Made by a program: the position numbers and the translations under genes. A stretch of DNA of 64,000 nt, from NCBI GenBank assembly GCA_001823095.1, contig MHTL01000014.1, positions 1,881 to 65,880 on the forward strand, in the 5' to 3' direction. Source of the stretch: Candidatus Vogelbacteria bacterium RIFOXYD1_FULL_51_18. GTDB lineage: Bacteria > Patescibacteriota > Minisyncoccia > Phycocordibacterales > UBA9988. Below, in pieces: positions 7,508-45,838 of the stretch (position 1 is the stretch's first letter; every line of letters begins with the position of its first letter). Below the pieces are notes generated by a model. The model was not told the origin of the DNA. It searched no databases and was given only the letters and a program-made list of their open reading frames with translations.

Positions 7508-8086
7508 TTATTTTAAAGGTAGGTCAAATGCTTTGCGTAGCCATCGGTCATTCTCAATAAAATCGGCAGTGAGATAGAGCACGTCTTTACCTATGTGGAT
7601 ATGCGCTTTCAAGAGCGTCACTACTTCTTGGCATTCGTACGGGTAGACCCATACACTCCGCTGGAGCTGGATAAAACCAAGTTGTGTAAGCCAGATGCGC
7701 AACGTATCTCTAGCGCCGCGCCTGGTTTCTTTGATGTCAAAGATAATGATTCTATATTTCTTATCCCACCGACGCGGTGTGGCGAGTGTTATATGTTTAA
7801 GCCGATACTGCATAAGGAGATCCCTGCCCTTTTCTGTAAGTCTCAATACCTTTCCAACTACCGGGTCTTGCTCCTGTTTGATTAACCCTTGCCGGATACA
7901 ACGCGTGACGACTACGTTTACATAGTGACACTTCTGCCGCCTGAAGAGAGGGGTGTATTTTAAGAGGCGCATTGCATTCGGCGCAACAGCGGCAAGGGCG
8001 AGGATCCCTGTGACGGCGATAAGACCAAGCACAATGGCGCTCACATCCCCTAGCACCCCCGATTTCTCTTTTTGTTTTTTCTCCAT
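7508..8086 (-). CDS. membrane-anchored winged-helix plus Cas2-like domain protein (PaaX/Cas2-fold-like), function unknown
   Basis: N-terminal TM helix (VSAIVLGLIAVTGILALAAV) and a wHTH-like segment (RCIRQGLIKQ...LRLTEKGRDLL). The C-terminal block YRIIIFDIKETRRGARDTLRIWLTQLGFIQLQRSVWVY resembles the Cas2 core (xxVVxYDIxxxxRRxKvxKxLxxyGxRvQxSVFeC). Confidence 0.55.
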   Translation of the reverse strand: MEKKQKEKSGVLGDVSAIVLGLIAVTGILALAAVAPNAMRLLKYTPLFRRQKCHYVNVVVTRCIRQGLIKQEQDPVVGKVLRLTEKGRDLLMQYRLKHITLATPRRWDKKYRIIIFDIKETRRGARDTLRIWLTQLGFIQLQRSVWVYPYECQEVVTLLKAHIHIGKDVLYLTADFIENDRWLRKAFDLPLK

Positions 8087-9046: not shown

Positions 9047-9079
9047 TATACATAGGTAATCTTTAAGAAAGGGGATTGG

Positions 9080-9370
9080 TTGATGGCAGAACAGTACCGC
9101 TACAACTGCATAGTTGGGGGCGTGCACAGACAGCTCCTTACACCTGAACTGGGAAGCGCCGTGTTTTTAAAAGCAGCACAAACGCGGGGAAGTCCCAAGA
9201 GGCGGGTATGCGCCGAGCCGGGCTGTATCACAGTACTCTCGGGCAGCAATGAGGGCGCCAAGTGCCGGAGGCATCAGGATACAGAGTTCATACGGGCAAC
9301 CGCGCAGAGTCCAGGGCGGACAGTGGTCCGCCGAAGGAATGCAGGGAGACGAAAAGGGAGAGGAACATGA
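9080..9370 (+). CDS. hypothetical basic protein with Cys motif
   Basis: ORF whose TGA overlaps the next ATG (ATGA); contains CAEPGC...C...H; no confident family. Confidence 0.35.
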   Translation: MMAEQYRYNCIVGGVHRQLLTPELGSAVFLKAAQTRGSPKRRVCAEPGCITVLSGSNEGAKCRRHQDTEFIRATAQSPGRTVVRRRNAGRRKGRGT

Positions 9371-9642
9371 AAACAGAAAGCTTCCAAAATGATCGGCCGA
9401 GTGAGCGGGCGTTGCGCGACTTGGACATCTACTTGGCGCATCATGGCACAGTGTCGCGCCATAGGCAGGCATGCATTGATTGCGGCGCTCTCTTGAATCA
9501 CTACAACTCTGGGCCGCGGTGCCTCCCTTGTGAGAGAGAAGAGGAGAAACGGCAATTAGAGCGCAGGCTCAAACGTTTCCACCCGCTGGATTTGGGGAGA
9601 GTTCGCAACCGGCACCGGCTCTTTAGCCACTTTGCCAAATAG
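9367..9642 (+). CDS. hypothetical zinc-ribbon protein (CxxC-x13-CxxC)
   Basis: CIDCGALLNHYNSGPRCLPC; 4-nt overlap with the upstream ORF; sits upstream of rpmF, where YceD/DUF177 often lies. Confidence 0.4.
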   Translation: MKTESFQNDRPSERALRDLDIYLAHHGTVSRHRQACIDCGALLNHYNSGPRCLPCEREEEKRQLERRLKRFHPLDLGRVRNRHRLFSHFAK

Positions 9643-9729
9643 TTCACCCATCCTCTGCTGTGGCTTTTGCCTCGACTTACCATCGGGGCTTTTTTTCTTT
9701 ACTTTTCCTCTCCTCCCGTGTATAGTAGG

Positions 9730-9963
9730 CGGATGTCAGTACGCATGCGCCATACTCGCGCCCATACGGCAAACCGCAGATCACATCATGCGATAGAGGG
9801 TGTCCGTCTGTCCACGTGTCTCAAATGCGGCGCTTTGCATGTGCGCCACCGCGTGTGCCTCAACTGCGGGAGCTACCGCGGACGCGAGGTGCTCAATGTG
9901 CTTGCCAAGGTGGAAAAGCGGCAGGAACGCATGCGCAAGCGCGAGGCAGCCGCATCGAAGTAA
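9730..9963 (+). CDS. rpmF: 50S ribosomal protein L32
   Basis: [20 protein letters not shown]... plus a CLKCG...CLNCG zinc ribbon, classic bL32. Confidence 0.85.
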
Positions 9964-10001: not shown

Positions 10002-10931
10002 ATGGCAAATCGGCACCTTTCACGCAGTATAGCGCTCCAATCACTCTTTGAGTGGGATTTCATGAGCGAAACCGCCACGATAACGGATAGTTACGGCGGG
10101 CTCGCCGCTTCTATTGAAGCAAATATTGCCGAATTTGCTCCCGGTTTGGAGGATGCCCGTTTTACAAAATCTCTTGCTGCTGGTGTGGTAGAGTATCGCG
10201 AGAAGCTGGATACTGTTATTGAAAAATTTGCTCCAGACTGGCCGATTGACCAGATTTCCATAGTAGACCGCAATGTCCTGCGTCTCGGACTCTTTGAGCT
10301 CCTCTTTGGCGACACAAAAGAGGTCCCCGCCAAAGTTGCTATCAACGAGGCCATTGAACTTGCCAAGATGTTCGGCGGCGAGTCTAGCGGCAAGTTCGTC
10401 AACGGCGTGCTCGGCTCGGTATATCGCGAGATGGGTGAGCCGGGCAAGGACGACGTCCCCGCCAAGAAGCGCCGCGTTAAGGAGAGGGATATAGATCCTA
10501 AGGATCTCCCCATAGAGAAGCTTGGCGGCGCTGTGGTATACTCGCGCGAGCGCGGCACCATCCGTCTTGCGCTCGTCCACGACGTGTTTGGCTACTGGAC
10601 GCTTTCAAAGGGGCATATTGAGGAGGGCGAGAATGCGGAGGAGGGGACGATACGCGAAATCCACGAGGAGCTCTCGCTCCCCATCACCATTGTTGGCGCA
10701 CTGGGCGGTAACGAATATATTGCCTCCCATCCGGAGAAGGGTAAGATACGCAAGCAGGTGGACTACTTTTTGGGAGAGACCAAGGACAGGGGTAAGCTCA
10801 AGCTCACCAAGGAAGGAGGGCTTGACCAAGCGGCGTGGTTTACGCTTGAAGAACTCGGCGATCTGCGCATCTATGACGACATCATCCCCATTATTACCAA
10901 AGGCATTCAAATAATACTTGCAAAACCATGA
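10002..10931 (+). CDS. nusB: NusB antitermination factor fused to a C-terminal NUDIX hydrolase domain
   Basis: N-terminal NusB (RSIALQSLFEWDF...VDRNVLRLGLFELLF...KFVNGVLG), a Lys/Arg/Asp-rich linker, then a Nudix box GHIEEGENAEEGTIREIHEELSL. Confidence 0.8.
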   Translation: MANRHLSRSIALQSLFEWDFMSETATITDSYGGLAASIEANIAEFAPGLEDARFTKSLAAGVVEYREKLDTVIEKFAPDWPIDQISIVDRNVLRLGLFELLFGDTKEVPAKVAINEAIELAKMFGGESSGKFVNGVLGSVYREMGEPGKDDVPAKKRRVKERDIDPKDLPIEKLGGAVVYSRERGTIRLALVHDVFGYWTLSKGHIEEGENAEEGTIREIHEELSLPITIVGALGGNEYIASHPEKGKIRKQVDYFLGETKDRGKLKLTKEGGLDQAAWFTLEELGDLRIYDDIIPIITKGIQIILAKP

Positions 10932-11629
10932 GCACGGACTTTTCTCCCTTTGAAGCGCGGATCGGCGTGCGATTTAGAGATCGGGCTCTGCTGGAGCAGG
11001 CCTTCATACATCGCTCATACCTTAATGAAAATCCTAACATAACTCTTGGCCATAACGAGCGGCTGGAGTTTCTCGGCGATGCGGTGCTGGAGCTGGCGGT
11101 AACCGACTATCTCTACCGTAGCTACCCAAAAGAGGACGAGGGGACATTGACTGCATACCGTTCCGCACTTGTTAATGCAGTGACTATCGGTACTGTGGCG
11201 CAGGAGCTCGGTATGAACGAGCATCTCTTGCTCTCGCGCGGGGAGGCAAAAGATGAGGGGCGCGCGCGGCAGGTCATCCTTGCCAACACCTACGAGGCGG
11301 TAGTTGGCGCACTTTATCTTGACCAGGGCTACGCGTGCGCGCGGGACTTTATTACGGCACATCTCATCCCGCGCATGGACGGCATCCTTGCCGAGAATCT
11401 CTGGCTGGATGCGAAGAGTTTTTTCCAGGAAAAAGCGCAGGAGAAGGAGGGCGTTACTCCCTCTTACAACGTTCTCGCGGAATCCGGGCCCGACCACAAC
11501 AAAAAATTTACCGTTGGCGTCTACATCGGGAGCGAGCAGGTGGCGCAGGGCAACGGCCATTCCAAGCAGGAGGCCGAACAAGATGCCGCGCGCAAGGCCC
11601 TTGCCGAGAAACGTTGGAATGTCCGCTAG
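10928..11629 (+). CDS. rnc: ribonuclease III
   Basis: HRSYLNE...NERLEFLGDAVLELAV RNase III signature plus a C-terminal dsRBD; ATGA overlap with nusB-nudix. Confidence 0.9.
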   Translation: MSTDFSPFEARIGVRFRDRALLEQAFIHRSYLNENPNITLGHNERLEFLGDAVLELAVTDYLYRSYPKEDEGTLTAYRSALVNAVTIGTVAQELGMNEHLLLSRGEAKDEGRARQVILANTYEAVVGALYLDQGYACARDFITAHLIPRMDGILAENLWLDAKSFFQEKAQEKEGVTPSYNVLAESGPDHNKKFTVGVYIGSEQVAQGNGHSKQEAEQDAARKALAEKRWNVR

Positions 11630-11644
11630 TGTTATAATAATTCC

Positions 11645-13837
11645 GTGCGGTTAAAAAATATTGAGCTTTCCGGTTTTAAGTCATTTGCAAAAAAGACGCT
11701 ACTTACTTTTGACGCGCCCATTACCGCTATCGTCGGCCCCAACGGTTCGGGGAAGAGCAATATTGCGGAGGCCTTCCGCTGGGTCTTGGGCGAACAGTCG
11801 CTTAAAATACTGCGCGGTAAACGCGGCGAGGACCTGATTTTCAACGGCTCCGGCTCTGCGCCGCGGATGAGCCGGGCGTCGGTGACACTCACCTTTGACA
11901 ACAGCGGCAGGAGCTTGCCGCTCTCATTTAACGAGGTTTCCATCTCGCGCGAGGTGCACACCGACGGCGCCAGTGAGTATCTCCTCAACCGCTCCAAGGT
12001 GCGCCTCAAGGACATTGTAGAGCTCCTTGCCTCGGTGGGGCTCGGAAGCACGGGCCACCACATCATCTCGCAGGGCGAGGCTGACCGAATATTGCGCGCA
12101 CGCCCGCGTGAGCGCGAGGCCATGATTGAAGAGGCGCTCTCGCTTACGGTCTATCATCTCAAAATTGCCGAGAGCGAGCGCAAGCTCCAAAAAACACAGG
12201 AGAACCTGCGCCAGGTTGAGGCATTGCGAAAGGAAATTGCGCCGCACCTCAAGTTTTTGGGCAAGCAAATGGAGAAGATGCGCCAGGCGGAAAGCCTGCG
12301 AGATGAGCTCACGGCTCTCTATCGCGACTACCTTGCCCGCGAGGAATCCTACCTGCGGAGAACCGCACAGGAGCTTGCGGCGGCACGTACAGTACCTGCG
12401 CAGGAGCTCCGCGACATTGAAGCGCGCCTGAAAAATGCCGAAACACTCCTCTCACGGGGAGGTCCGGCAGAGAGCGACGACGAATGGACTTTCACACGCT
12501 TGCGCAGAGAGCTTGGAGAGACGGGGAATGAGCGCGCAGAACTTACCCGCAAACTTGGGAGAGTTGAGGGCATGATAGAGGTGAGGAGCGAGAGCGAGGG
12601 AACAGAGGCAGACGCCGCATCTATACCGCTCGCGGACGTCCGTACGCTCGTAGAGGACATTGAGGCGCTCATCGCGGGCAGTGAACAGAAAAGCGATTTT
12701 ACATCCATCAAGGCGGCGCTTACCGCTATTAGGGAAGAGGTAAGAATTTTTATCGGGCAATTTGCAGGGAGCATAAAGAGCAGCAAGGCAAGCACACTCT
12801 CGGGACTTACGCGCGAGAAGGAGATCATGGAGCGCGCGCTCGGCGCCGTGCTCGCTCGAGAGGAAGGACTGCGCGCGGAAGCCGATACCGTGCGTGCGCG
12901 CATTGCGGAGGCGGAAAGTCTTTCGCGCGAAAAGGAGCGGGAGACCTATGAGCTGAAGGCCGCGCGCAGCGCGCGCACGCAGGAACTCGAGTCGCTTGAC
13001 CTTAAGCGTTCCACGTTTGAAATCAGCGAGCGTGACTTCAAGGAGATGCTCGCAGAGGCGCGGGTTTTGATTGGACGGGAGGCGCTCAACTATAGTTCTG
13101 AACATTTGAATCTTGATACCGAGACGCGTGCCGCACAGGAAGCGCGGCACAAGCAGATTGACCGGCTCAAGTTCAAGTTGGAAGACCTTGGCGCCGGAGG
13201 CGACGACATCGTGAAGGAGTACCGAGAGGTGAGCGAGCGTGACAGCTTTCTCTCGCGCGAGCTTGAGGACCTTTCTGCGAGCGAGCAATCCCTCCATCAG
13301 GTGCTCCGGGAGCTTGAGGAGATTCTGGAGCGCGAGTTCCATGAGGGGATTGAGAAGATTAATGCCGAATTCCAAAAGTTTTTTGAGTTGATGTTCGGCG
13401 GCGGCACGGCGTCTATTTTTGTCATTAAAGCAAAGCGGCGCGCTCGGGGAGAGGAGGAAATTTTGGAGGAAGGGCAGGAGGAGACGGGCATAGACATATC
13501 GGTCTCACTCCCTCGCAAAAAACTCCGCGGCATTCATATGCTCTCCGGAGGCGAGCGGGCGCTTACCTCCATCGCACTTTTGTTTGCTATCTCACAGGTT
13601 AACCCGCCGCCCTTCCTCATCCTTGACGAGACGGATGCCGCTTTGGATGAGGCAAACTCGCGCCGCTACGGCGACATGATAGAGAACCTTTCGCACTACT
13701 CCCAGCTCATTGTGATTACCCACAACCGTGAGACCATGAGCCGCGCGGGCATTCTCTACGGCGTTACCATGAACGCCGACTCAATCTCAAAACTCCTCTC
13801 CATCCGCTTTGATGAGGCAGTAGATATTACAAAATAG
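11645..13837 (+). CDS. smc: SMC-family chromosome segregation ATPase (short, about 730 aa, GTG start)
   Basis: N-terminal Walker A GPNGSGKSNI, long coiled coil, and C-terminal LSGGERALTSIALLFAI...ILDETDAALD signature/Walker B. Confidence 0.85.
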   Translation: MRLKNIELSGFKSFAKKTLLTFDAPITAIVGPNGSGKSNIAEAFRWVLGEQSLKILRGKRGEDLIFNGSGSAPRMSRASVTLTFDNSGRSLPLSFNEVSISREVHTDGASEYLLNRSKVRLKDIVELLASVGLGSTGHHIISQGEADRILRARPREREAMIEEALSLTVYHLKIAESERKLQKTQENLRQVEALRKEIAPHLKFLGKQMEKMRQAESLRDELTALYRDYLAREESYLRRTAQELAAARTVPAQELRDIEARLKNAETLLSRGGPAESDDEWTFTRLRRELGETGNERAELTRKLGRVEGMIEVRSESEGTEADAASIPLADVRTLVEDIEALIAGSEQKSDFTSIKAALTAIREEVRIFIGQFAGSIKSSKASTLSGLTREKEIMERALGAVLAREEGLRAEADTVRARIAEAESLSREKERETYELKAARSARTQELESLDLKRSTFEISERDFKEMLAEARVLIGREALNYSSEHLNLDTETRAAQEARHKQIDRLKFKLEDLGAGGDDIVKEYREVSERDSFLSRELEDLSASEQSLHQVLRELEEILEREFHEGIEKINAEFQKFFELMFGGGTASIFVIKAKRRARGEEEILEEGQEETGIDISVSLPRKKLRGIHMLSGGERALTSIALLFAISQVNPPPFLILDETDAALDEANSRRYGDMIENLSHYSQLIVITHNRETMSRAGILYGVTMNADSISKLLSIRFDEAVDITK

Positions 13838-32584: not shown

Positions 32585-33814
32585 TTATTTTGGCGCAAGT
32601 TCGCTTGCGGGAGAAATAGTCACGCGGACGCTCCGGGGAGCAATACTGGTGAGGGAAAAGTAAGGGGGCAAAGTCACGTTCTCGCTCCCGAGCGTATAAC
32701 GCTTAGTGCCTTCCTTGGACTCGGCAAGGTTAACAGATACCTTGATACTTGAGGGAGTGAGTCCCTGAAAATCGCGGTAATTGCCCGAGACAGTCACCGT
32801 TGCCTCGTGCACGTCGCTCTCTTTAATGGCAAACCCGCTAGGAATGGAGCGGAATTCAATCGGCGCCAGCACCTGCTTGGTAGTAACGCCTGTCTGGTAG
32901 ACGAGGCCGAACCACAAAAGCGTCGAAAGGAGCAGCGCCGAAAGTTTGAGCAAAAAATTGCGCACCACGAGGTCGCGCCAAGGACTTATGCCAACCTCAA
33001 TGTTCTCCTTCAAAAAATCTTCAATTATTTTTTCAAGCCGCTCGGGTTCCGTCACCGTGTTCAGCATGCCATCAGAGGCGTAGGAGATGCTTCCTTTTTC
33101 CTCCGAGACAACAATGGCAAGCGCGTCAGTTTTCTCGGTAATGCCGACGGCGGCGCGGTGCCGCGTGCCAAATCCGTCTAGCCGGTCAAAGCGCTCTGCA
33201 AGCGGGAGGTGCACGCCAAAACGGCGGATGCGGTGGTCGTTAATGATAATAGCGCCATCGTGCCCGGGCGAAGTGGGATCAAAAATGGAGAGGAGGAGGG
33301 GGACAGAAATTCTCCCGTCTAAGGGCACGCCACCCTCGGTCACATCTTCAAGCGGATAGTCGCCCTGAAAAACGATGATCGCTCCAAAGCGCCGCTGCGT
33401 CATCTCAAGTAGCGCGCGTGTGATGGCTACCGATGCGCTCTCCGAGACGTTTGCTTTGCGCTCGTAGGCGAGCCGACGCGAGGCAAAGGAGAACCACTCA
33501 AAAAAGCGGCGTATCTCCCGCTGGAAGACGATAACGATGATGACAACAATGAAGGTGAGTATGGGCTGGATAATTTGCCTCGTCAGTCCAAGGTTGAAGG
33601 TGCTGCCGAGGATGTTGACTCCCATGAGGAGCGCCATGGCGCTTACAATAAAGTAGGAGCGACTCTGCTTGATGAAGATGAGAATCAGATAGATGAGGAA
33701 GGCGGCGACGGCAACGTCAATAAAATCCTTCGTCTGGAGCGAATCAAAAAGGGCGGGGAGCCCTGCAATGAAGGTCATGAGTGTGCTGGTTGGCATAGCT
33801 TCTCTAGTATACAA
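32585..33814 (-). CDS. cdaA: diadenylate cyclase CdaA fused to a YbbR-repeat (CdaR-like) domain
   Basis: N-terminal TM helices, DAC domain (GAIIVF...DGAIIIN...HRAAVGITEKTDALAIVVSEE), a further TM helix, then YbbR-like repeats. Confidence 0.8.
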   Translation of the reverse strand: MYTREAMPTSTLMTFIAGLPALFDSLQTKDFIDVAVAAFLIYLILIFIKQSRSYFIVSAMALLMGVNILGSTFNLGLTRQIIQPILTFIVVIIVIVFQREIRRFFEWFSFASRRLAYERKANVSESASVAITRALLEMTQRRFGAIIVFQGDYPLEDVTEGGVPLDGRISVPLLLSIFDPTSPGHDGAIIINDHRIRRFGVHLPLAERFDRLDGFGTRHRAAVGITEKTDALAIVVSEEKGSISYASDGMLNTVTEPERLEKIIEDFLKENIEVGISPWRDLVVRNFLLKLSALLLSTLLWFGLVYQTGVTTKQVLAPIEFRSIPSGFAIKESDVHEATVTVSGNYRDFQGLTPSSIKVSVNLAESKEGTKRYTLGSENVTLPPYFSLTSIAPRSVRVTISPASELAPK

Positions 33815-37986: not shown

Positions 37987-38661
37987 CTAACTCAAATCTT
38001 TCTTCCTTTCCTCAAATTCTTTTTTATCAATCTCACCTTTAGCATACCGTTTCTGCAAAATTTCAAGCGCGGATTTTTCGTGATTGTGCGTGCCGCGCGA
38101 TTGATTCGTAAGCCATTTGATAAGCGCGACAATACCCGCGATTATCAATACCCACCAGAGGATCATAAAAATCCAGCCGAACGAGCCAAAAGGCCCAGAT
38201 CCAAAATTCATCATACTCCCTCCCCACATCATATTCATCATCGGCATCCAGCCGCCGCTTATGGCCGGAAATGATGCTGATGTATCGCAACCAGAAAGAC
38301 GTTTACCCATGACGATGTGAATCTGCTCTTCGCCGTCTTCGCCATGCGCCTGAATCATCATGGCGTTCATGGCGGCATGGGACTCTCCAGCCATTTGTCC
38401 CATAAAATACTCGCCGAGAACTCCAAACTGCTCATCGCTTAAATTCTCGCAAGCGATTTCTTTTGCTTGCAGTGTATCCCAAAGCCCTTTGCCTTCCTGT
38501 TCTTCACGGGCGGTATGTTCAACGACCTCGTTCCAATCAACTGTCGTATTGGAGAGATTACCCATCCCTTCAACACCGTTCAGGACAGGCATTTGAGCAT
38601 CTACCGAACCGTCAACAAGTATTGACCCAAAAATGAAAGCCGTGATTAAAAGTTTTTTCAT
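37987..38661 (-). CDS. secreted/membrane Met-rich protein with C-terminal SHOCT domain
   Basis: Signal peptide MKKLLITAFIFGSILV, a Met-rich segment GGWMPMMNMMWGGSMMNFG, a TM helix, and a C-terminal LEILQKRYAKGEIDKKEFEERKKDL SHOCT-like motif. Confidence 0.6.
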   Translation of the reverse strand: MKKLLITAFIFGSILVDGSVDAQMPVLNGVEGMGNLSNTTVDWNEVVEHTAREEQEGKGLWDTLQAKEIACENLSDEQFGVLGEYFMGQMAGESHAAMNAMMIQAHGEDGEEQIHIVMGKRLSGCDTSASFPAISGGWMPMMNMMWGGSMMNFGSGPFGSFGWIFMILWWVLIIAGIVALIKWLTNQSRGTHNHEKSALEILQKRYAKGEIDKKEFEERKKDLS

Positions 38662-38683
38662 ACAGTCGTATTTTAGCTTATTC

Positions 38684-39067
38684 TTATTGTTTAGAAAAGA
38701 CGAAATACGAAAGATACCCAAGGAGTCCGAGTTGAATCGTAGGCGTTAAGCCGACGGAGAGAATTGGGATTATGGGCATATACTCATTATACGCCCATCT
38801 TCCCGTGTTGAGAGCGTACAATTCAATACATATCGAAATCAAGACGCCAATCGGAATAATGAGCCAGCTTCTTTTTCTGAGACTGGCGACCAGTACAAAG
38901 GGTAGAGTCAATAGGATAATAATAATCGCATCAGCGATAGAAGCTCGCAACAGAATAGTCTCGGTTATCTCTCCGCCCATATAAACGATATAAAAATAGG
39001 AATGTAAATTTTCCCAAATTAGATTAAGAAAAAATGACAAAATAAAAATTAAAGATACTTTTTTCAT
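38684..39067 (-). CDS. hypothetical multi-TM membrane protein (very AT-rich gene)
   Basis: Four predicted hydrophobic helices; composition is markedly AT-richer than the backbone. Confidence 0.5.
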   Translation of the reverse strand: MKKVSLIFILSFFLNLIWENLHSYFYIVYMGGEITETILLRASIADAIIIILLTLPFVLVASLRKRSWLIIPIGVLISICIELYALNTGRWAYNEYMPIIPILSVGLTPTIQLGLLGYLSYFVFSKQ

Positions 39068-39201
39068 ACTGTTTATTTTTCCGCATGAGCGGTATGCTCC
39101 TTAAAACGTTTCCTAAGATCGGTGGTTGATCCAAAATAAAGTTGCGAATCTTTTTTACTTTTCAAAATACATGTGTAGTTCATAGAATTTGGTGTGGGGG
39201 T

Positions 39202-40104
39202 TTATTTTTGTTCCCAGGGACTATTCAAAGACTCTTCTCCAATCTTCCACACGCCCTTTTCCAAGAAAGCCTCGATGGTCTGGCGGGTGGCCTTGTTGAT
39301 AAGATTTGAGTGAGAAAATTTGTTGCTCTTTGCATAGTCGGAAAGCAGAACAATCTTTTTGCTCTCTAAATATGCCAAACGCTTGTGATAACTATTGGTA
39401 AGAGCCTTACCAATAATCTCTTCCATAATTTCGGTTGCCCCCTTTTCATCAAACTCCCTGAAAGCGTCGTAGTATTTCTTCTGGTCGATAAACTTGATGT
39501 TTATCGGCACAAAGCCTTCCCGTATGAGGAGATAGTTGTTGATGACGCGCCCAATGCGGCCATTCCCGTCCATGAATGGGTGGAGATATTCAAACGCCAG
39601 ATGAAGCCGCGCGATGCGCTTGATGATATTTTCATGACTTGTCGCATTGTATTCCGCAAACATCTTCTCAAGACTCCCGTTGATTTCTTTTGGAGCAGGA
39701 GCAATATAACTGCCGACACGAACATACTCGTCATCCTTGCGAAATCGTCCGGCAACTTCATCACGAATATTTGACAGGAGCATCTTGTGGAGTGACAAGA
39801 TAACCTCAAAGCCGAGCTCCTGCTCTTTAGCCCGCTTGTTTATGTACGACACGACTCGGGCAAGATTTTTTGCTTCGAATATTTCTCGTTCAGAAATATA
39901 CCGGTCCAGATCAATCTGGAGAAGTATCTTTTCCGTTTCCTCAAGAGAGAGAGTACTGTTCTCGATAGCGTTTGAGTTGTATACCTGATCTGCGATTTCC
40001 GCTTCGCTTATAAGCTTAATAAGCGCATCTTTTCCGATGGCCGCTTTGTAATACCTTTCCCTAAACAGATTGATTTTATTAAGTGCTCTAGCTGTTTTCG
40101 CCAT
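39202..40104 (-). CDS. Fic/DOC-family protein (putative AMPylase)
   Basis: Canonical Fic motif HPFMDGNGRIGR. Confidence 0.9.
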   Translation of the reverse strand: MAKTARALNKINLFRERYYKAAIGKDALIKLISEAEIADQVYNSNAIENSTLSLEETEKILLQIDLDRYISEREIFEAKNLARVVSYINKRAKEQELGFEVILSLHKMLLSNIRDEVAGRFRKDDEYVRVGSYIAPAPKEINGSLEKMFAEYNATSHENIIKRIARLHLAFEYLHPFMDGNGRIGRVINNYLLIREGFVPINIKFIDQKKYYDAFREFDEKGATEIMEEIIGKALTNSYHKRLAYLESKKIVLLSDYAKSNKFSHSNLINKATRQTIEAFLEKGVWKIGEESLNSPWEQK

Positions 40105-40121
40105 ACGGATTAAGTATAGTC

Positions 40122-40157
40122 TTTTTCACGACTTTGTCAACTCTAATCGTGAAAAAC
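40122..40157. repeat. split variant of the TCACGA/TCGTGA hairpin: tttttcacga-[16 nt]-tcgtgaaaaa, 18 nt upstream of the Fic start
   Basis: 10-nt perfect inverted arms containing the TCACGA half-sites, separated by ctttgtcaactctaa; a further TTTCACGATTTTG half-site lies at about 40177. Confidence 0.5.
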
Positions 40158-40582
40158 TCTCTTTTTTCTTATACTTTCACGATTTTGGACATATAGCCCC
40201 TCTGCCTTTCAGCAGTATAACAAAAAGTGTCTCATATTGGCTCCGGAGTTAAAACCTTCACAAACCCCGAAGGAAAAACAAGTTCCCTACGAGGCATGCT
40301 TTTGAAATTATTCTGCCAAATCTGATACACAAATCCAAAAAGCAAAATCTGAAGTGATGCGCCCCGCCACTATTTTTCTGGGACAAAGGAGGCGGGGCTG
40401 GGCGACCTGTCCGCCGTAGCTTTAGCAAAGGCGGAGCGAACCCTCTCGTCTTCAAAATCCGAGTTCGTATCTAGTTTATTGGCTCCCACTACTGAACGAG
40501 TTTAGAACAATAGATTGGAAGGGTATAAAGCAAGAACTTGAGCTTAGCGGTATTATGACGCTACTGGGCCAGAGAGGTTTTG

Positions 40583-41026
40583 TTAGCGTCTAACCTTATC
40601 GGTTTCAAGATGGTTTTCTGTTATGGCCACAACATAGAAAGTTCGTTCTGGCTCAATATCAAAATAGAATATCCGTGCTCTTTGTTGTAGTTTTATTTCC
40701 TTGAGTTCAATGCCTTCAGCAATGCCCCTGTATAGCTTTTTGTATTCGCTATCGTATCTCATAGGTATTCGGTCCACATAGTTTCTTTGAAAATCGGCCT
40801 CGGGGCGGATTTTTGTTCCTATGGTTTTGAGAGTTTCTATGGCCCTTTTTGCTTTGTTGCCGCCGAGCTCTGAAATCTCGCACATTCTTTCGTTGTATTT
40901 TGCAAAAGAGATTACATAAGGAATTGCCTCAGGTGCTTCTGTGTCCTGAGGCAATTCTTGAGCGATTTGAGAAAGTTTGTCTATTTCATCACTTGGCTCT
41001 GTGGCTTGTTTTGGAATGTCGGTCAT
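40583..41026 (-). CDS. uncharacterised 147-aa protein, candidate toxin partner of the Panacea-domain antitoxin (weak RelE/HigB-like C-terminus)
   Basis: ATGA overlap with the upstream Panacea gene. C-terminal YRGIAEGIELKEIKLQQRARIFYFDIEPERTFYVVAITENH resembles the RelE/ParE/HigB (Gp49-like) beta-strand core; acidic N-terminal 50 aa. Confidence 0.5.
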   Translation of the reverse strand: MTDIPKQATEPSDEIDKLSQIAQELPQDTEAPEAIPYVISFAKYNERMCEISELGGNKAKRAIETLKTIGTKIRPEADFQRNYVDRIPMRYDSEYKKLYRGIAEGIELKEIKLQQRARIFYFDIEPERTFYVVAITENHLETDKVRR

Positions 41027-41526
41027 TTGTGCTTCTTGGCCTCTTCCAATTTTTCAGAGTAGTAATTTTTCATTGATTCAAGGGATATTTCGTTTTCTGA
41101 GTTTTCATAATGCTGAAGGCCCTTTCGTGCTTCTCGCCACGGCTCTTCTGAGTGCGTGAGCATTTCCAAATAACCAGCATCAAGTTTTCCGTATGCGTTC
41201 CATACGGTATCAATAAGTTCTTTTGACTTGCCCGAAATGTTAAGCGTGTCTGATTTTATCTCTTCCTGTATCGGTTCAAATCCGAACTTTTTATATAGCA
41301 CATACAAACTGCGAACTGCTGGCCCGTGCACCCACGCTTCAATCGGCTCACTGAAGAGTTTTTTGTTATTCAATACCAAAGACCAGGCCTGTGCGTAATA
41401 GACCAGTTTTTGGAGTTTTTTATTCGTTATCGGCTCTTTTTCTTGGCTGGCGAGATATAAGAAATATCGGCCTACATCCCGTGCCTTTAAGGTTTTTTGA
41501 GAGTGTAAGGCCATAGGTATTTTCAT
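41023..41526 (-). CDS. Panacea-domain (DUF4065, SocA/PanA-like) antitoxin
   Basis: NKKLQKLVYYAQAWSLVLNNKKLFSEPIEAWVHGPAVRSLYVLY matches the Panacea core, and the N-terminal DVGRYFLYL matches the family leader. Confidence 0.75.
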   Translation of the reverse strand: MKIPMALHSQKTLKARDVGRYFLYLASQEKEPITNKKLQKLVYYAQAWSLVLNNKKLFSEPIEAWVHGPAVRSLYVLYKKFGFEPIQEEIKSDTLNISGKSKELIDTVWNAYGKLDAGYLEMLTHSEEPWREARKGLQHYENSENEISLESMKNYYSEKLEEAKKHK

Positions 41527-41537
41527 AGTAGCAATTC

Positions 41538-41555
41538 TGTAAACAGTTGTAAACA
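41538..41555 (-). promoter_or_regulatory. direct-repeat operator-like element TGTTTACA-ac-TGTTTACA (minus-strand sense) upstream of the Panacea gene
   Basis: Two 8-mers at 10-bp spacing, 12 nt upstream of the proposed ATG, in an AT-rich 110-bp gap after abiEii. Confidence 0.4.
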
Positions 41556-41638
41556 GACAGGAAGATGTTGATATTTCTGGCCGAGCGTGTAAACTAAAGT
41601 AAAGTATGAAAGAAGTAATGATGGATAGACTCATAATT

Positions 41639-42931
41639 TTATTTTAACAAGTCATCAAAGTCGTGTCTGATTAGATCTTCTTTCCGAAGAACGATCTGTT
41701 CCTTCTGATTCAGGTTGTCAGCGGATACACGGATAAGTTTTGTCATCAGGGTGTCACCAACAAGTTCATAGTTAATTTTCTTCAAATAGGCCTCGATTTT
41801 TTCGTAAAATAGAGAGGCGTATTCTTTCTGCTTTTTCTCTGATGTCGGTCTACTGCTAGAACCATTTGCTGAAAACTCGATGCTGTCACTCACTACGTTG
41901 TTGATTGGAAACGAAACCTCGATGTCTTTGAAAAGAAACCAGTACTCGCTCAAGTTATATATAATGCGCACGTGGTCGCCCTCTTTCGTGCTGTACTCAA
42001 AAATGAAAGAGAACACATCAGTCCGGAAGTCCTCGAACACTCGCACTCTTTCGTATTTTGATACGGTTCTGATTTTATATTTATCGCGTAGCTGAAAGAA
42101 AGTGTCGCGCCAGTTCGCAAGCCAGTTAGTGACGAAACGAGGGTCAAGAAAGAGCGGTGAGAGGTCATTTTTGAGATTTTCTTCGCTTACGTTGTTCATT
42201 TTTACCGCAAGTTTTGTGAACAGTGTCCGATAATCTTTTGCTTCTTCCACATTCTTTGCTTTGAGATAGTCAAGGTCGGGTACGATTTTCTTACTCATGT
42301 ACCAAAGTAAATCGTAGATGTCGCGCCCTTTTTCTTCATACACCGCCTCGCCGACGCCACGCGTTCCGCGAAGGAAAATTGCAGCGATTTTGCTCGCCAT
42401 AAGAGAAGAGAGGTTGTATGTCCGGATTACGAATGACAACTGTCCATGATTCTGCGGTATTCTTTCCGTAACAACGCCGCCGGGCGGTGCAAACTGATTA
42501 CAATCAACTTTCACATGAATCCATTCGGAAGCGTAGCCCTCAATCAAACTGCCAGCTCGGAATTTAAGCGTTATGCCTCGATTGTTCGTGATAGAGATTT
42601 TCAAAAATTCCGCGTCAACTCCATAGACTTTTGCGAAATGCTTTTCTGCCTCTTCTTTGAATTCGTTGAGAAAGTCGCTGTCAACCTTGTGGCTTACCTC
42701 AAAATCCAAATCAACGGACATTCGGTCGAGGTCATAGCAGATGCGAAGCGCTGAGCCGCCATACATTATCCATTTGTTATATTCCGGATGATGATAAGTG
42801 AAATCGAGGACATAGAACTGCAACTCCTCTTTAAGAACGTTGAGGCGCGTCTCGGGATCGGAAATGCTAACGCCATAGGTCGAAAGGCCATCAAGTTTGC
42901 TTTTCAGGACTGTTAGTATCTGATCACTCAT
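41639..42931 (-). CDS. abiEii: AbiEii/AbiGii-family nucleotidyltransferase toxin (DUF1814)
   Basis: IMYGGSALRICYDLDRMSVDLDFEVS matches the AbiEii NTase motif (GGTAL...R.SEDLDF); 430 aa. Confidence 0.85.
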   Translation of the reverse strand: MSDQILTVLKSKLDGLSTYGVSISDPETRLNVLKEELQFYVLDFTYHHPEYNKWIMYGGSALRICYDLDRMSVDLDFEVSHKVDSDFLNEFKEEAEKHFAKVYGVDAEFLKISITNNRGITLKFRAGSLIEGYASEWIHVKVDCNQFAPPGGVVTERIPQNHGQLSFVIRTYNLSSLMASKIAAIFLRGTRGVGEAVYEEKGRDIYDLLWYMSKKIVPDLDYLKAKNVEEAKDYRTLFTKLAVKMNNVSEENLKNDLSPLFLDPRFVTNWLANWRDTFFQLRDKYKIRTVSKYERVRVFEDFRTDVFSFIFEYSTKEGDHVRIIYNLSEYWFLFKDIEVSFPINNVVSDSIEFSANGSSSRPTSEKKQKEYASLFYEKIEAYLKKINYELVGDTLMTKLIRVSADNLNQKEQIVLRKEDLIRHDFDDLLK

Positions 42932-43541
42932 GGAGATATGTTTTTACTTTTTCATAAAATTTCTTCCGCTCCTCCTCGTCCATCTCATCAATATCTATCC
43001 GCAATTCTTTTACCATCTTTGTAATATCTTCAAACCGGACGCTTCGAAACTGATGCGTTCTGAAGTACAGCAAGTCGAATAGTGCTTTTGATGGAGAAGC
43101 AATAAAAAAATCAAATTTTCCTTTCACAAGAGAGTAATCCGAAAAGAGATTCTTATTGATTGACTGGTATGAAAAAGTCCCCGCCTTCGTTTCATAATCC
43201 CGTGTGATTTTCGGTGTAACCGACGTGATAGAGCGTATCGCTTCAGTGGCGAGATTATAATACTGGAGCGCAGTCCACGAGCTTACGTAGGAAGGCGTAC
43301 GGAGAATGTTTGCAAGGTAGAAAGAATACGAGATATCGCTTTTATTATCTGCAAAAAAATCGGCGGTAATATACAAGCCATTTTTCAGCGGCAAAATCTC
43401 TTTGCGCTTCAAAAAACGGCTGATGTATGTATTTACCGTACTATTTTTCAGCCCCAACTGACTACCAAGCTGGTATACTGTACTTTTGGTGAAATGGGGC
43501 AAACTATTAAGCTGTTCCAACAGATTTTTCTTGCTTTTCAT
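42924..43541 (-). CDS. abiEi: AbiEi-family antitoxin/transcriptional regulator (wHTH N-domain)
   Basis: N-terminal wHTH (TVYQLGSQLGLKNSTVNTYISRFLKRKEILPLKNGLYI); 8-nt overlap with abiEii. Confidence 0.8.
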   Translation of the reverse strand: MKSKKNLLEQLNSLPHFTKSTVYQLGSQLGLKNSTVNTYISRFLKRKEILPLKNGLYITADFFADNKSDISYSFYLANILRTPSYVSSWTALQYYNLATEAIRSITSVTPKITRDYETKAGTFSYQSINKNLFSDYSLVKGKFDFFIASPSKALFDLLYFRTHQFRSVRFEDITKMVKELRIDIDEMDEEERKKFYEKVKTYLHE

Positions 43542-44061
43542 AACTATGACAATAGTGTATCATATATGAAATGAGCAGTCAAAAGCTCATATAGCCCGCC
43601 CCGCCTTTTTGCCACCCCATTCCAATTCAAATCCCCCCCGCGAAAAAAATAAGAATGGAGAAGGGGCAAAAGGCGAGGGCGGAACGCCGAGGCTCTGCGA
43701 GGCGTTGGGCGGAATGGTTAGAGTCACCACAGAGTCCGAGCGTACGATTCAATCAGAAGCCACCACGCACGCGGAGCGTGCGATTAGTCATCAGTCGGAT
43801 TATTGCGAAAATATGTTCGAACTTTTTCTAACAAACACAGCAAACTTAGATACCCTTCGGAATTTTTGGAACCGAGGGGCGCGCTTCGCGCGCTGTATGG
43901 AAAATCGGCGAGGAGGGCAAAGGATTTTTTCGGAGTGGCAAAAAGCGCGCTTCGCGCGCAGGTGGGGGTTCCATGATGAGTACATCATTCAAAACAAAGT
44001 TTTGCGAGCCGACGGGCGGCAATTTCAAAGCGATTGAGAGCATAGCTTTCCCTTTTTCTAT

Positions 44062-45435: not shown

Positions 45436-45520
45436 CGGCTCAACAAGCCAAAATTATCGCTTTGCAAGAAAATCCCGTCGCGGGACGGGATTTTCTCAAA
45501 AGAATTGGCTCGAACCACGT
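45302..45520. repeat. 101-bp tandem direct repeat, 2 full copies plus a 17-nt third copy, each starting ATTGGCTCGAACC
   Basis: Units at 45302-45402 and 45403-45503 are identical apart from a 6-nt patch (ggcccg vs acgtcg); partial unit at 45504-45520. Confidence 0.9.
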
Positions 45521-45629
45521 TTTGCGCTCGCAAGCGATTTGCTTTGAACCTAAAAAGTCGTGGAAAATTCTTGCCGATTTGCCCGCCGAGGGGCGAAGCC
45601 CCGAGGCGGAGAACTCGTATCATCCTATT

Positions 45630-45705
45630 TGGCTCCGCGGCTAGGGCTCGAACCTAGGACATCCTCGTTAACAGCGAGGCGCTCTACCAACTGAGCTACC
45701 GCGGA
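45630..45705 (-). tRNA. tRNA-Asn (anticodon GTT), CCA encoded
   Basis: Reverse complement reads TCCGCGG-TA-GCTC-AGTTGGT-AGAGC-G-CCTCG-CTGTTAA-CGAGG-ATGTC-CTAGG-TTCGAGC-CCTAG-CCGCGGA-G-CCA, a clean cloverleaf. Confidence 0.85.
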
Positions 45706-45756
45706 ATATATTTTTCCGCGGTAGCTCAGTACTGAGCCCTGCCTGTCGGCAGGCAG
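45690..45756. repeat. inverted copy of the first 16 nt of tRNA-Asn (TCCGCGGTAGCTCAGT) 9 nt beyond the tRNA 5' end, followed by a ctgcctg/caggcag hairpin
   Basis: 45690-45705 (tRNA 5' end, minus) and 45715-45730 (plus) are exact reverse complements. Confidence 0.7.
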
Positions 45757-45838
45757 ATACCGCAGAATATCGTTCTTAAAGAACCGAACTAAATGGTATC
45801 AAATTTCTCTAATTCGCGCGAATAAGCGAATAGTATAT

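What the first reader, a model, noticed from the sequence alone, without database searches (positions are those of the whole stretch)
10002..10931. NusB fused to a NUDIX hydrolase
A single 309-aa ORF contains a complete NusB followed by a basic linker and a NUDIX domain with an intact Nudix box (GHIEEGENAEEGTIREIHEELSL). It sits in the conserved rpmF/nusB/rnc neighbourhood. I do not recall a NusB-Nudix fusion from model organisms. It would couple the antitermination/rRNA-transcription factor to an NDP-X hydrolase, for example RNA 5'-end decapping (RppH-like) or alarmone/dinucleotide hydrolysis.
Basis: partly seen in the sequence, partly recalled or inferred. Interest (0 to 1): 0.55.

Follow-up and report, generated by a model that had tools for sequence, protein, structure and literature searches.

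The report
NusB with tethered Nudix domain
This is a real single gene, found in at least several hundred genomes of the uncultivated Parcubacteria/Paceibacteria, that joins the rRNA-transcription factor NusB to an Ap4A-hydrolase-like Nudix domain; across the family that domain keeps its nucleotide-binding pocket but repeatedly loses its catalytic residues, so its lasting job is probably binding, not hydrolysis.

Summary
Window 10002..10931 (+) is one 309-aa ORF with a full NusB domain (residues 1-144), a Lys/Arg-rich linker (145-172) and a Nudix domain (173-309) with an intact Nudix box.

It is not an assembly artefact. More than 8000 database proteins match, and at least 583 species-representative genomes hold a relative. 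All 80 loci examined carry one uninterrupted ORF in the order rpmF - nusB::nudix - rnc - smc.

The Nudix half is not RppH-like. Its closest sequence and fold relatives are ApnA hydrolases: Thermus Ndx1, Aquifex Ap4A hydrolase, Chlamydia CT771 and human NUDT2.

The main new result concerns the wider fusion family. The canonical catalytic set (G, E, RE, EE) survives in only 38 of 81 species and 9 of 51 cluster representatives. It survives in 28 of 32 stand-alone relatives. At least 20 independent switches are needed to explain this. The adenine-stacking and phosphate-binding pocket residues stay almost invariant.

The window's own sub-lineage keeps the box (106 of 121 closest clusters), so its enzyme may still be active.

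Best reading: NusB carries a nucleotide or RNA-5'-end-binding module, sometimes still hydrolytic, held beside the nascent rRNA leader. I found no publication on it. It is a new variant of known kinds, of moderate to high interest.

The parts
9667..9963 (+). rpmF (ribosomal protein L32), the gene immediately upstream. The true start is probably internal to this ORF.
   Evidence: Pfam Ribosomal_L32p, E 4.6e-14. It lies upstream of the fusion in 78 of 80 related loci.
10002..10931 (+). Complete nusB::nudix gene, 309 codons plus stop.
   Evidence: One uninterrupted ORF in 80 of 80 related genomes.
10002..10433 (+). NusB domain (residues 1-144), all-helical.
   Evidence: PF01029 E 1.5e-33 and TIGR01951 above cut-off. 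AF2 pLDDT is mostly above 90. Foldseek TMt is 0.88 to Aquifex NusB in the NusB-NusE-RNA complex 3r2d. EcF122 maps to F132, EcY18 to F16 and EcD118 to S128.
10434..10517 (+). Conserved Lys/Arg-rich tether (residues 145-172: GEPGKDDVPAKKRRVKERDIDPKDLPIE).
   Evidence: AF2 pLDDT is below 50 for residues 148-162 and pTM is 0.50, so no fixed domain packing is predicted. The sequence is nevertheless nearly invariant among the 120 closest clusters: G145, E146, P147, G148, K149, P153, K155, K156.
10518..10928 (+). Nudix-fold domain (residues 173-309) of the NUDT2/Ndx1 ApnA-hydrolase type.
   Evidence: PF00293 E 6.6e-14. Sequence search of solved structures: Ndx1 E 5e-10, then CT771 and Ap4A hydrolases. 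Foldseek: Aquifex Ap4A hydrolase TMt 0.90. Pocket residues W199, K203, Y239, K251, Y255 and Y291 are near-invariant.
10611..10679 (+). Nudix box GHIEEGENAEEGTIREIHEELSL (residues 204-226). It is intact here except Gly to Ser at residue 225.
   Evidence: It is the least conserved part of the domain across the family, with mean pairwise identity 0.47 against 0.555 for the whole domain.
10928..11629 (+). rnc (RNase III), whose start overlaps the fusion's stop codon (ATGA). Translational coupling is likely.
   Evidence: Pfam Ribonucleas_3_3, Ribonuclease_3 and dsrm. It lies downstream of the fusion in 79 of 80 loci and in the divergent locus L081.

Best explanation
The gene encodes the NusB of this organism, a Parcubacteria/Paceibacteria (CPR) bacterium, extended by a flexible, conserved, basic tether of about 28 residues and a C-terminal Nudix domain of the NUDT2/Ndx1 (ApnA hydrolase) type.

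Shown: the fusion is real, ancient and near-universal in this lineage. Both halves are under purifying selection. The NusB half keeps the residues used for NusE pairing and BoxA stacking. The Nudix half keeps the adenine-stacking tyrosines and the P1-phosphate Lys and Tyr pocket in nearly all members, while the metal-binding glutamates of the Nudix box are repeatedly lost.

Inferred: the NusB half works as usual, in a NusB-NusE heterodimer on boxA of nascent rRNA, travelling with RNA polymerase. The tethered Nudix domain is a pocket for a nucleoside 5'-oligophosphate. NusB holds it beside the 5' leader of the transcript, where it most plausibly grips the 5'-triphosphate or an Np4-type cap of the nascent pre-rRNA. 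In lineages with an intact box, including this window, it probably also cleaves that group (pppRNA to pRNA, or decapping), as NUDT2 does on ppp-RNA. In lineages with a degenerate box it only binds. The conserved selected function is therefore binding or anchoring, and hydrolysis is an optional extra. The constant pairing with rnc fits a role in co-transcriptional handling of the rRNA leader.
For: Architecture. AF2 predicts two confident domains and a disordered linker.

Reality and spread:
- More than 8000 hits were found. The top 120 are 276-311 aa long, and 119 of them carry both Pfam domains.
- At least 583 species-representative genomes hold a relative.
- 80 of 80 loci have a single ORF.
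- Synteny: rpmF 78/80, rnc 79/80, smc 71/80.

Type of Nudix: sequence search of solved structures and Foldseek both put ApnA hydrolases first.

Catalytic erosion:
- The full E210/R218/E219/E222/E223 set is present in 38 of 81 species.
- 9 of 51 fusion cluster representatives are canonical against 28 of 32 stand-alone relatives (Fisher p = 4e-10).
- At least 20 independent switches are needed, at least 17 of them at E219, against 0-3 at pocket positions.
- Members with no Nudix box exist (P0249, P0241), and P0249 still sits between rpmF and rnc.
- Non-canonical members keep the rest of the domain as conserved (0.545) as canonical ones (0.569), and the box is the least conserved segment.

Pocket mapping: His/Lys/Tyr/Lys bind the P1 phosphate and a Tyr pair stacks the adenine in Ap4A hydrolases (PMC4734340). 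These map to Y/H198, K203, Y239, K251 and Y291.

Precedents:
- NUDT2 trims ppp-RNA (PMC8616924).

The window's lineage keeps the box in 106 of 121 clusters.
Against: - No experiment exists, and the ligand is unknown.
- The window holds no rRNA operon or boxA, so the distance from the 5' end to boxA in these organisms is untested.
- The pocket residues are also part of the general fold signature of stand-alone relatives. Their conservation does not by itself prove ligand binding.
- Tethering by a disordered linker is also compatible with a simple co-expression fusion.
- Some Nudix enzymes tolerate loss of individual box residues or use other bases (PMC5526541), so 'non-canonical' is not proof of inactivity.
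- The Fisher test is not corrected for phylogeny.
Confidence: 0.4

Rival explanations
1. Sensor model. The Nudix domain binds a free nucleotide signal, such as Ap4A or another ApnA, or possibly (p)ppGpp or ATP. It thereby modulates NusB activity, so that rRNA antitermination responds to stress or growth state. This would resemble the catalytically dead Nudix domain of NrtR regulators, which senses ADP-ribose.
For: The nucleotide pocket is conserved while catalytic residues erode. The closest relatives act on free ApnA. The same Nudix type, with E219 replaced by K, is found fused to an HTH/DnaA_C-like DNA-binding module in P0205. The NrtR Nudix domain is a detectable but weaker fold match (ranks 34-36).
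Against: The two domains are joined by a segment predicted to be disordered, with no predicted interface (pTM 0.50). That is a poor basis for allosteric coupling. The window's sub-lineage keeps a complete catalytic set, which a pure sensor does not need.
Confidence: 0.2
2. Co-expression fusion. The Nudix half is simply the cell's housekeeping ApnA or nucleotide-sanitising hydrolase. It became fused to nusB in a streamlined genome and has no mechanistic link to antitermination.
For: The Nudix box is intact in the window protein and in 106 of 121 closest clusters. The linker is flexible. No other Nudix ORF lies in the 64-kb window. The best relatives are free-ApnA hydrolases.
Against: Catalytic residues are lost at least 20 times while the domain is retained and stays conserved. 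Stand-alone relatives keep the residues in 28 of 32 cases. Dead-box members keep the fusion and the synteny. The linker sequence is nearly invariant, which is unexpected for a passive spacer.
Confidence: 0.2
3. Pseudoenzyme scaffold. The Nudix fold serves as a protein-protein module of the antitermination complex, for example docking on RNA polymerase, NusA, NusG or S10. This would parallel the inositol monophosphatase SuhB in the E. coli rRNA antitermination complex. No nucleotide ligand would be involved.
For: Catalytic residues erode while the fold is retained. SuhB is a precedent: its enzymatic activity is not required in E. coli (PMC6614797; PMC8632103). The conserved linker motif could be a docking peptide.
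Against: The residues that stay invariant are exactly those that bind the P1 phosphate and stack the adenine in Ap4A hydrolases. A pure protein scaffold would not need them.
Confidence: 0.12
4. Artefact. A missed stop or frameshift near 10480 joins two separate genes.
For: None was found. Reads could not be inspected.
Against: 80 of 80 independent genomes have a single ORF. Thousands of full-length homologues from different assemblies and sources exist. The linker is conserved at the protein level.
Confidence: 0.01

Closest known systems
NusB (transcription antitermination factor; TIGR01951, PF01029)
   Same: The N-terminal 144 residues are a canonical NusB. The HMM score is above the equivalog cut-off. 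The fold matches NusB in NusB-NusE-RNA complexes with TMt 0.88. The BoxA-stacking Phe (EcF122 maps to F132) and the NusE-interface aromatic (EcY18 maps to F16) are kept (PMC3177189).
   Different: It carries 165 extra C-terminal residues: a conserved basic tether plus a Nudix domain. Characterised NusB proteins (E. coli, M. tuberculosis, T. maritima, A. aeolicus) are single-domain proteins of about 140 aa.
NUDT2/Ndx1-type ApnA hydrolases (Thermus Ndx1, Aquifex aq_158, Chlamydia CT771, C. elegans and human Ap4A hydrolase)
   Same: These are the best sequence matches (E 5e-10 to 8e-05) and fold matches (TMt 0.69-0.90). The WxxxKGH motif, the loop-5 Tyr, the downstream Lys and the second stacking Tyr are shared.
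   Different: Those enzymes are stand-alone proteins of 126-155 aa with strictly kept Nudix boxes. Here the domain is fused to NusB, and across the family the box is the least conserved segment.
RppH (bacterial RNA 5' pyrophosphohydrolase and Np4 decapping enzyme)
   Same: It is a Nudix enzyme acting on RNA 5' ends. Np4 caps and their removal by RppH are documented (PMC8833179, PMC7044304).
   Different: The gene is not a member of the RppH family. The RppH model scores 20 bits against a cut-off of 118. BdRppH gives sequence E 0.04 and TMt 0.62-0.64.
RsmB/Sun (16S rRNA m5C967 methyltransferase)
   Same: It sets a precedent for a NusB-like N-terminal domain fused to a catalytic domain that acts on rRNA. 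The RsmB models hit residues 38-167 of this protein.
   Different: The partner domain there is a SAM methyltransferase, not a Nudix domain. RsmB scores here are far below cut-off (60.7 against 319). The N-terminal half here is true NusB, not merely NusB-like.
NrtR (Nudix-related transcriptional regulators) and SuhB in the rRNA antitermination complex
   Same: Both are enzyme folds recruited into transcription control whose catalysis is lost or dispensable. NrtR senses ADP-ribose (established knowledge). SuhB's inositol monophosphatase activity is not required in E. coli (PMC6614797).
   Different: NrtR pairs its Nudix domain with a winged-helix DNA-binding domain and is only a weak fold match. 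SuhB has a different fold and is a separate polypeptide.

Membership tests
NusB (TIGR01951 / PF01029) | Profile score above the curated cut-off | tested here: met
   TIGR01951 scores 120.9 bits against 88.35. PF01029 scores 116.4 against 23.1.
NusB (TIGR01951 / PF01029) | All-helical NusB fold | tested here: met
   AF2 predicts seven helices with pLDDT about 90. Foldseek gives TMt 0.88 to 3r2d_B and 0.82 to 1tzv and 1eyv.
NusB (TIGR01951 / PF01029) | BoxA-stacking Phe (EcF122) and NusE-interface aromatic (EcY18) | tested here: met
   F132 is invariant. F16 is invariant among the 38 closest relatives and about 90% conserved across 81 species; it is a conservative Tyr-to-Phe change. The roles of these residues are taken from PMC3177189.
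NusB (TIGR01951 / PF01029) | Binds NusE (S10) and boxA RNA and supports antitermination | not testable with these tools
   The window holds no rRNA operon, boxA or S10 gene. Biochemistry is needed.
Nudix hydrolase superfamily (PF00293) | Alpha/beta/alpha Nudix fold | tested here: met
   PF00293 E 6.6e-14. TMt is 0.90 to 3i7u.
Nudix hydrolase superfamily (PF00293) | Nudix box GX5EX7REUXEEXGU with its metal-binding glutamates | tested here: met
   The window protein has G204, E210, R218, E219, E222 and E223; only G225 is replaced by Ser. Across the family this feature is NOT conserved: 38 of 81 species and 9 of 51 cluster representatives are canonical.
Nudix hydrolase superfamily (PF00293) | Mg2+-dependent pyrophosphohydrolase activity | not testable with these tools
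   An enzyme assay is required.
NUDT2/Ndx1-type ApnA hydrolases | Closest relatives by both sequence and fold | tested here: met
NUDT2/Ndx1-type ApnA hydrolases | P1-phosphate site (His, Lys, Tyr, Lys) and adenine-stacking Tyr pair | tested here: met
   K203, Y239, K251 and Y291 are present and near-invariant. The His position is Y198 in the window and His in about half of the family. Residue roles are taken from PMC4734340.
NUDT2/Ndx1-type ApnA hydrolases | Asymmetric hydrolysis of Ap4A-Ap6A | not testable with these tools
   An assay is required.
RppH | Profile membership (NF001936 / PRK00714) | tested here: not met
   20.1 bits against a cut-off of 118, covering only residues 185-225. BdRppH gives E 0.044 and TMt 0.62-0.64.
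RsmB/Sun | C-terminal SAM-dependent m5C methyltransferase domain | tested here: not met
   RsmB models match only the NusB-like part, at 60.7 bits against 319. No methyltransferase domain is found.
NrtR-type inactive Nudix sensors | Degenerate Nudix box plus a winged-helix DNA-binding domain | tested here: not met
   The box is intact in the window protein and no wHTH domain is present. The analogy applies only to the eroded family members.

The most novel reading that the evidence does not exclude
In Parcubacteria/Paceibacteria the rRNA antitermination complex carries a built-in reader or remover of RNA 5' ends. NusB anchors on boxA while its tethered Nudix pocket captures the 5'-triphosphate or Np4 cap of the same nascent pre-rRNA. 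It hydrolyses that group in lineages with an intact box and merely clamps it in the others. This would be the first bacterial case of a 5'-end-modifying or 5'-end-binding module physically built into an elongation factor, analogous in logic to co-transcriptional cap handling in eukaryotes. It would tie 5'-end status to rRNA leader folding and RNase III processing.
Probability: 0.2. Interest if true: 0.8.

Novelty: new variant of a known kind. Interest (0 to 1): 0.55.

Why it matters
NusB is a universal single-copy bacterial factor, usually a bare 140-aa protein. Here an entire major uncultivated lineage has welded a nucleotide-binding enzyme fold onto it and kept it for a very long time.

The evolutionary pattern is informative. 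The pocket is frozen and the catalytic glutamates are free to decay. That is a natural experiment saying the added domain is needed for what it binds, not for what it cleaves.

If the ligand is the RNA 5' end, this reveals a new way of coupling transcript 5'-end status to rRNA transcription and processing in organisms with minimal genomes. If the ligand is an ApnA or alarmone, it would be a direct small-molecule input into antitermination.

There are practical consequences too. Databases name these proteins simply 'NusB', and the most diverged members are no longer recognised as Nudix at all, so the domain is invisible to annotation. The closely related intact and dead-box orthologues give ready-made controls for biochemistry.

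Tried and rejected
- Literature. Four searches (NusB+Nudix+fusion; NusB+Parcubacteria; Nudix+Patescibacteria; Ap4A hydrolase residue names) found nothing about this architecture. The CT771 paper (PMC3956076) is not held.
- The afdb50 fold library is not installed, so no UniProt-level census of the architecture was made.
- The listing of cluster members gave almost no taxon names for divergent members.
- P0155, a 3150-aa repetitive protein with 11 matched stretches, is a compositional false positive of the representative search.
- Foldseek hits to two-domain Dcp2 complexes span 245-268 columns but have rmsd about 15 A. They show an analogy of layout only, not a real two-domain match.
- The RppH assignment was rejected on profile and fold scores.
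- The frameshift or artefact idea was rejected.
- A second NusB or Nudix gene was sought in the window by phmmer and a Nudix-box regular expression over all six-frame ORFs. None was found. Whole genomes could not be checked.
- Many MAG records are titled 'uncultured Candidatus Saccharibacteria'. I treat this as a generic submitter label. Every specifically named hit is Parcubacteria-type (Vogel-, Nomura-, Kaiser-, Lloyd-, Giovannoni- or Zambryskibacteria, Paceibacterota, Minisyncoccia). I could not verify the taxonomy of the others.
Full report
**1. Observation**

Window 10002..10931 (+) is a single ORF of 309 codons plus a stop. Pfam finds a complete NusB domain at residues 7-142 (E 1.5e-33) and a NUDIX domain at residues 189-287 (E 6.6e-14). 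Both are above the curated cut-offs. The NCBIfam equivalog model for NusB (TIGR01951) scores 120.9 bits against a cut-off of 88.35.

The Nudix box GHIEEGENAEEGTIREIHEELSL is residues 204-226. It fits GX5EX7REUXEEXGU except for Ser in place of the penultimate Gly. The intervening segment (GEPGKDDVPAKKRRVKERDIDPKDLPIE) is basic.

rpmF ends 38 nt upstream, and the rnc start codon overlaps the stop codon (ATGA).

**2. Not an artefact, and how widespread**

- A search of 5.8 billion proteins returned the maximum of 8000 scored hits. The best 120 are 60-98% identical and 276-311 aa long. Of these, 119 carry both Pfam domains.
- Where a source names them, the name is only 'transcription antitermination factor NusB'. 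The organisms are Patescibacteria, Paceibacterota, Vogelbacteria and Nomurabacteria.
The 80 best loci come from Parcubacteria-type MAGs.
- In all 80 loci the two halves are one uninterrupted reading frame of 296-333 aa.
- The neighbourhood is rpmF (78/80) - fusion (80/80) - rnc (79/80) - smc (71/80).
- A search started from a very divergent member (P0249) again returned full-length (mostly about 300-aa) proteins from Paceibacterota and Minisyncoccia.
- No second NusB-like or Nudix-like ORF lies in the 64-kb window.

I could not inspect reads. A frameshift artefact is nonetheless excluded for practical purposes.

**3. Anatomy**

AlphaFold2 was run with a 38-sequence alignment. It gives mean pLDDT 89 and two confident domains:
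- helices 2-144;
- a beta-grasp/helix Nudix fold at residues 171-307.

Residues 148-162 have pLDDT below 50, and pTM is 0.50. No fixed packing of the two domains is predicted.

This 'disordered' tether is nevertheless almost invariant among the 120 closest clusters: Y-K-E-M-G-E-P-G-K-D-D-V-P-A-K-K-K-R-x-K-D. That points to a linear motif with a partner rather than a passive spacer. In more distant members it stays Lys-rich but loses the GEPGK motif.

**4. The NusB half is canonical**

- The closest solved sequences are NusB of T. maritima, A. aeolicus, M. tuberculosis and E. coli (E 2e-20 to 3e-13).
- Foldseek gives TMt 0.88 to Aquifex NusB in the NusB-NusE-RNA complex.
EcY18 is the NusE-interface residue hit by the nusB5 mutation. 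EcD118 is the nusB101 position, and most relatives have Asn there. EcF122 is the residue shown to matter for antitermination. Residue roles are from PMC3177189.
- F132 is invariant in the family; F16 is invariant among the 38 closest relatives and about 90% conserved across 81 species.

**5. The Nudix half is of the ApnA-hydrolase type, not RppH**

- By sequence, the best solved relatives are Thermus Ndx1 (an Ap6A hydrolase, E 5e-10), Chlamydia CT771, and the human, C. elegans and Aquifex Ap4A hydrolases. BdRppH reaches only E 0.04.
- By fold, the order is Aquifex Ap4A hydrolase (TMt 0.90), M. tuberculosis Rv2985 and M. smegmatis MutT1, Ndx1, CT771, then the C. elegans and human Ap4A hydrolases. 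BdRppH is at TMt 0.62-0.64.
- The NCBIfam RppH model scores 20 bits against a cut-off of 118.
- The motif (Y/H)-W-T-L-S-K-G-H corresponds to H-W-x-x-P-K-G-H of Ap4A hydrolases.
- In P. falciparum and human Ap4A hydrolases the P1 phosphate is held by a His/Lys/Tyr/Lys set (Pf His43, Lys48, Tyr87, Lys94; human Lys42, Tyr82, Lys89), and the adenine is stacked between the loop-5 Tyr and a second Tyr or Phe (PMC4734340).
- By my own alignment and numbering, these correspond to Y198 (His in about half of the family), K203, Y239, K251 and Y291.

**6. The key comparative result**

In a Nudix hydrolase the Nudix box is normally the most conserved segment. Here it is the least conserved. Mean pairwise identity over 81 species is as follows.

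| Segment | Mean pairwise identity |
|---|---|
| NusB half | 0.665 |
| Whole Nudix half | 0.555 |
| Linker | 0.507 |
| Nudix box | 0.472 |

Column counts in the 81 species are as follows.

| Position | Species keeping the residue (of 81) |
|---|---|
| G204 | 80 |
| E210 | 68 |
| R218 | 68 |
| E219 | 46 (replaced by K, A, V or I) |
| E222 | 70 |
| E223 | 79 |

- Only 38 of 81 species keep all five of E210, R218, E219, E222 and E223. Some combine three or four losses, for example VAKEE, KKKEE and NKAKE.
- At the level of 50%-identity cluster representatives, 9 of 51 fusions are canonical against 28 of 32 stand-alone relatives of about 140 aa from the same search. Fisher p is 4e-10, not corrected for phylogeny.
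- On an NJ tree built without the box columns, parsimony needs at least 20 switches between canonical and non-canonical states, and at least 17 at E219. Pocket positions W199, K203, Y239, K251, Y255 and Y291 need 0-3.
- Non-canonical members keep the rest of the domain as conserved (0.545) as canonical members (0.569).
- In the most diverged clade (P0249, P0241 and neighbours) the REUXEE motif is gone altogether ('AAIIKDKTNL', 'VDILKRKINM'), and Pfam no longer sees a NUDIX domain. P0249 is still about 300 aa and still sits between rpmF and rnc.
- E219 is the counterpart of human NUDT2 E58, and E223 of Ndx1 E50. Both are residues that crystallographers mutated to trap ligand complexes (entries 4ijx and 1vc9). 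The inference that losing E219 cripples catalysis is mine. It is tempered by reports that the base differs among Nudix enzymes (PMC5526541).

**7. What this means for the window's own gene**

Its sub-lineage keeps the box. 106 of the 121 closest clusters (at least 60% identity) are fully canonical. In the 38-sequence alignment E219 and E223 are invariant, and E210, R218 and E222 are at least 90% conserved. Hydrolytic activity is therefore plausible in this organism. At the family level, however, the selected property of the appended domain is something that survives loss of the catalytic metal site.

**8. Mechanism proposed**

Shown:
- the architecture;
- the ApnA-type fold and pocket;
- the flexible but conserved basic tether;
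- the constant operon partner RNase III;
- erosion of catalysis alongside preservation of the pocket.

Established elsewhere:
- This helps deliver boxC to its downstream complement to form the RNase III site.
- nusB cold-sensitive defects are suppressed by deleting rnc (PMC8632103; PMC10250234).
- NUDT2, the human member of this Nudix subfamily, trims ppp-RNA to p-RNA (PMC8616924).
- Bacterial RNAs can carry Np4 caps that Nudix enzymes remove (PMC8833179, PMC7044304).

Inferred:
- The Nudix pocket binds a nucleoside 5'-oligophosphate.
- A flexible tether is more naturally suited to capturing a macromolecular ligand bound in cis than to sensing a small molecule allosterically. The most plausible ligand is therefore the 5'-ppp or cap of the boxA-bearing transcript that NusB already holds.
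- Intact-box members would cleave it, and dead-box members would only clamp it.

I put about 0.4 on this composite. The sub-claims carry roughly these confidences.

| Sub-claim | Confidence |
|---|---|
| Real lineage-wide fusion | >0.95 |
| ApnA-type domain | ~0.85 |
| Binding rather than hydrolysis is the conserved role | ~0.6 |
| The RNA 5' end is the ligand | ~0.3 |

**9. Rivals**

- A free-nucleotide sensor, NrtR-like: 0.2.
- A passive co-expression fusion with a housekeeping ApnA hydrolase: 0.2.
- A ligand-free pseudoenzyme scaffold, SuhB-like (PMC6614797): 0.12.
- An artefact: 0.01.

The evidence for and against each is given in the Rival explanations section of this report.

**10. Known or new**

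Both domains belong to well-known families. The proteins are in public databases, named 'NusB', with both Pfam domains precomputed. I found no paper that mentions the architecture, its distribution or the decay of its catalytic site.

The closest architectural precedent is RsmB, which has a NusB-like domain fused to an rRNA-modifying enzyme. The closest functional analogies are NrtR and SuhB. I rate it a new variant of known kinds.

Variants seen in passing reinforce a nucleic-acid context:
- NusB-Nudix with a C-terminal Rho_N/SAP-like tail (P0130, P0122);
- a 577-aa form with an N-terminal cold-shock-like segment (P0198);
- the same Nudix type, already with E219 replaced by K, behind an HTH/DnaA_C-like module (P0205).

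**11. Limits**

- No reads, no whole genomes and no rRNA leader were available.
- Taxon labels of many MAGs are generic.
- The Fisher test ignores phylogeny, although the parsimony count addresses independence.
- Residue-role mapping rests on one open-access paper plus my own alignment.
- The AlphaFold model says nothing about partners.

Noticed in passing
window 37987-46546: Probable integrated mobile island next to a tRNA gene (45633-45705, minus strand). It holds a SHOCT-domain protein, a Fic/DOC protein, a SocA/Panacea antitoxin, an AbiEii nucleotidyltransferase toxin, a large serine recombinase (44062-45435) and several ORFs with no Pfam hit.
   Followed up: partly
window 32585-33814 (-): One 409-aa ORF combines CdaA_N, the DAC (c-di-AMP cyclase) domain and a YbbR domain. 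In Firmicutes, by my recollection, the YbbR-domain regulator CdaR is a separate adjacent gene, so this looks like another gene fusion in the same genome.
   Followed up: no
window 9047-9666: The rnhB-rpmF gap is about 620 bp, against about 200 bp in the closest relative L001. It holds two overlapping ORFs (9080-9370 and 9262-9642). 9262-9642 has no Pfam hit and no tblastn match in the 80 related loci; 9080-9370 was not tested. Both have CxxC...N-G..C..[C/H] zinc-ribbon-like motifs. A similar motif opens P0205.
   Followed up: partly
window 11645-13837 (+): The smc ORF is only 730 aa, much shorter than my recollection of about 1100-1200 aa for typical bacterial SMC. tblastn matches to it in related loci span a similar length (about 2.1-2.4 kb where complete), so the short form appears to be a lineage trait.
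   Followed up: no
proteins P0130, P0122, P0198, P0205, P0269 (not in the window): Other architectures built on the same Nudix subtype were seen: NusB-Nudix plus a Rho_N/SAP-like C-terminal tail; a 577-aa protein with an N-terminal cold-shock-like part plus a degenerate NusB-Nudix; an HTH/DnaA_C-like module plus the Nudix domain; and the Nudix domain plus a DeoC aldolase. The domain labels for the extra segments are my reading of the sequences and were not checked with a profile search.
   Followed up: partly
window 7508-8086 (-): A 192-aa protein has a PaaX-type central Cas2-like domain (PF20803) and a weak winged-helix hit. It lies between dnaE and rnhB. It is found in only 3 of 80 related loci, so it is a variable insertion in an otherwise conserved gene order.
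   Followed up: no
window 47786-48862 and 51599-52588 (+): Two DHO_dh-family (dihydroorotate dehydrogenase-like) ORFs lie within 4 kb of each other. The second is a weak match (E 7e-11). An amidohydrolase-like ORF (weak Pfam match, E 7.6e-4, below cut-off) follows at 52590-53636.
   Followed up: no
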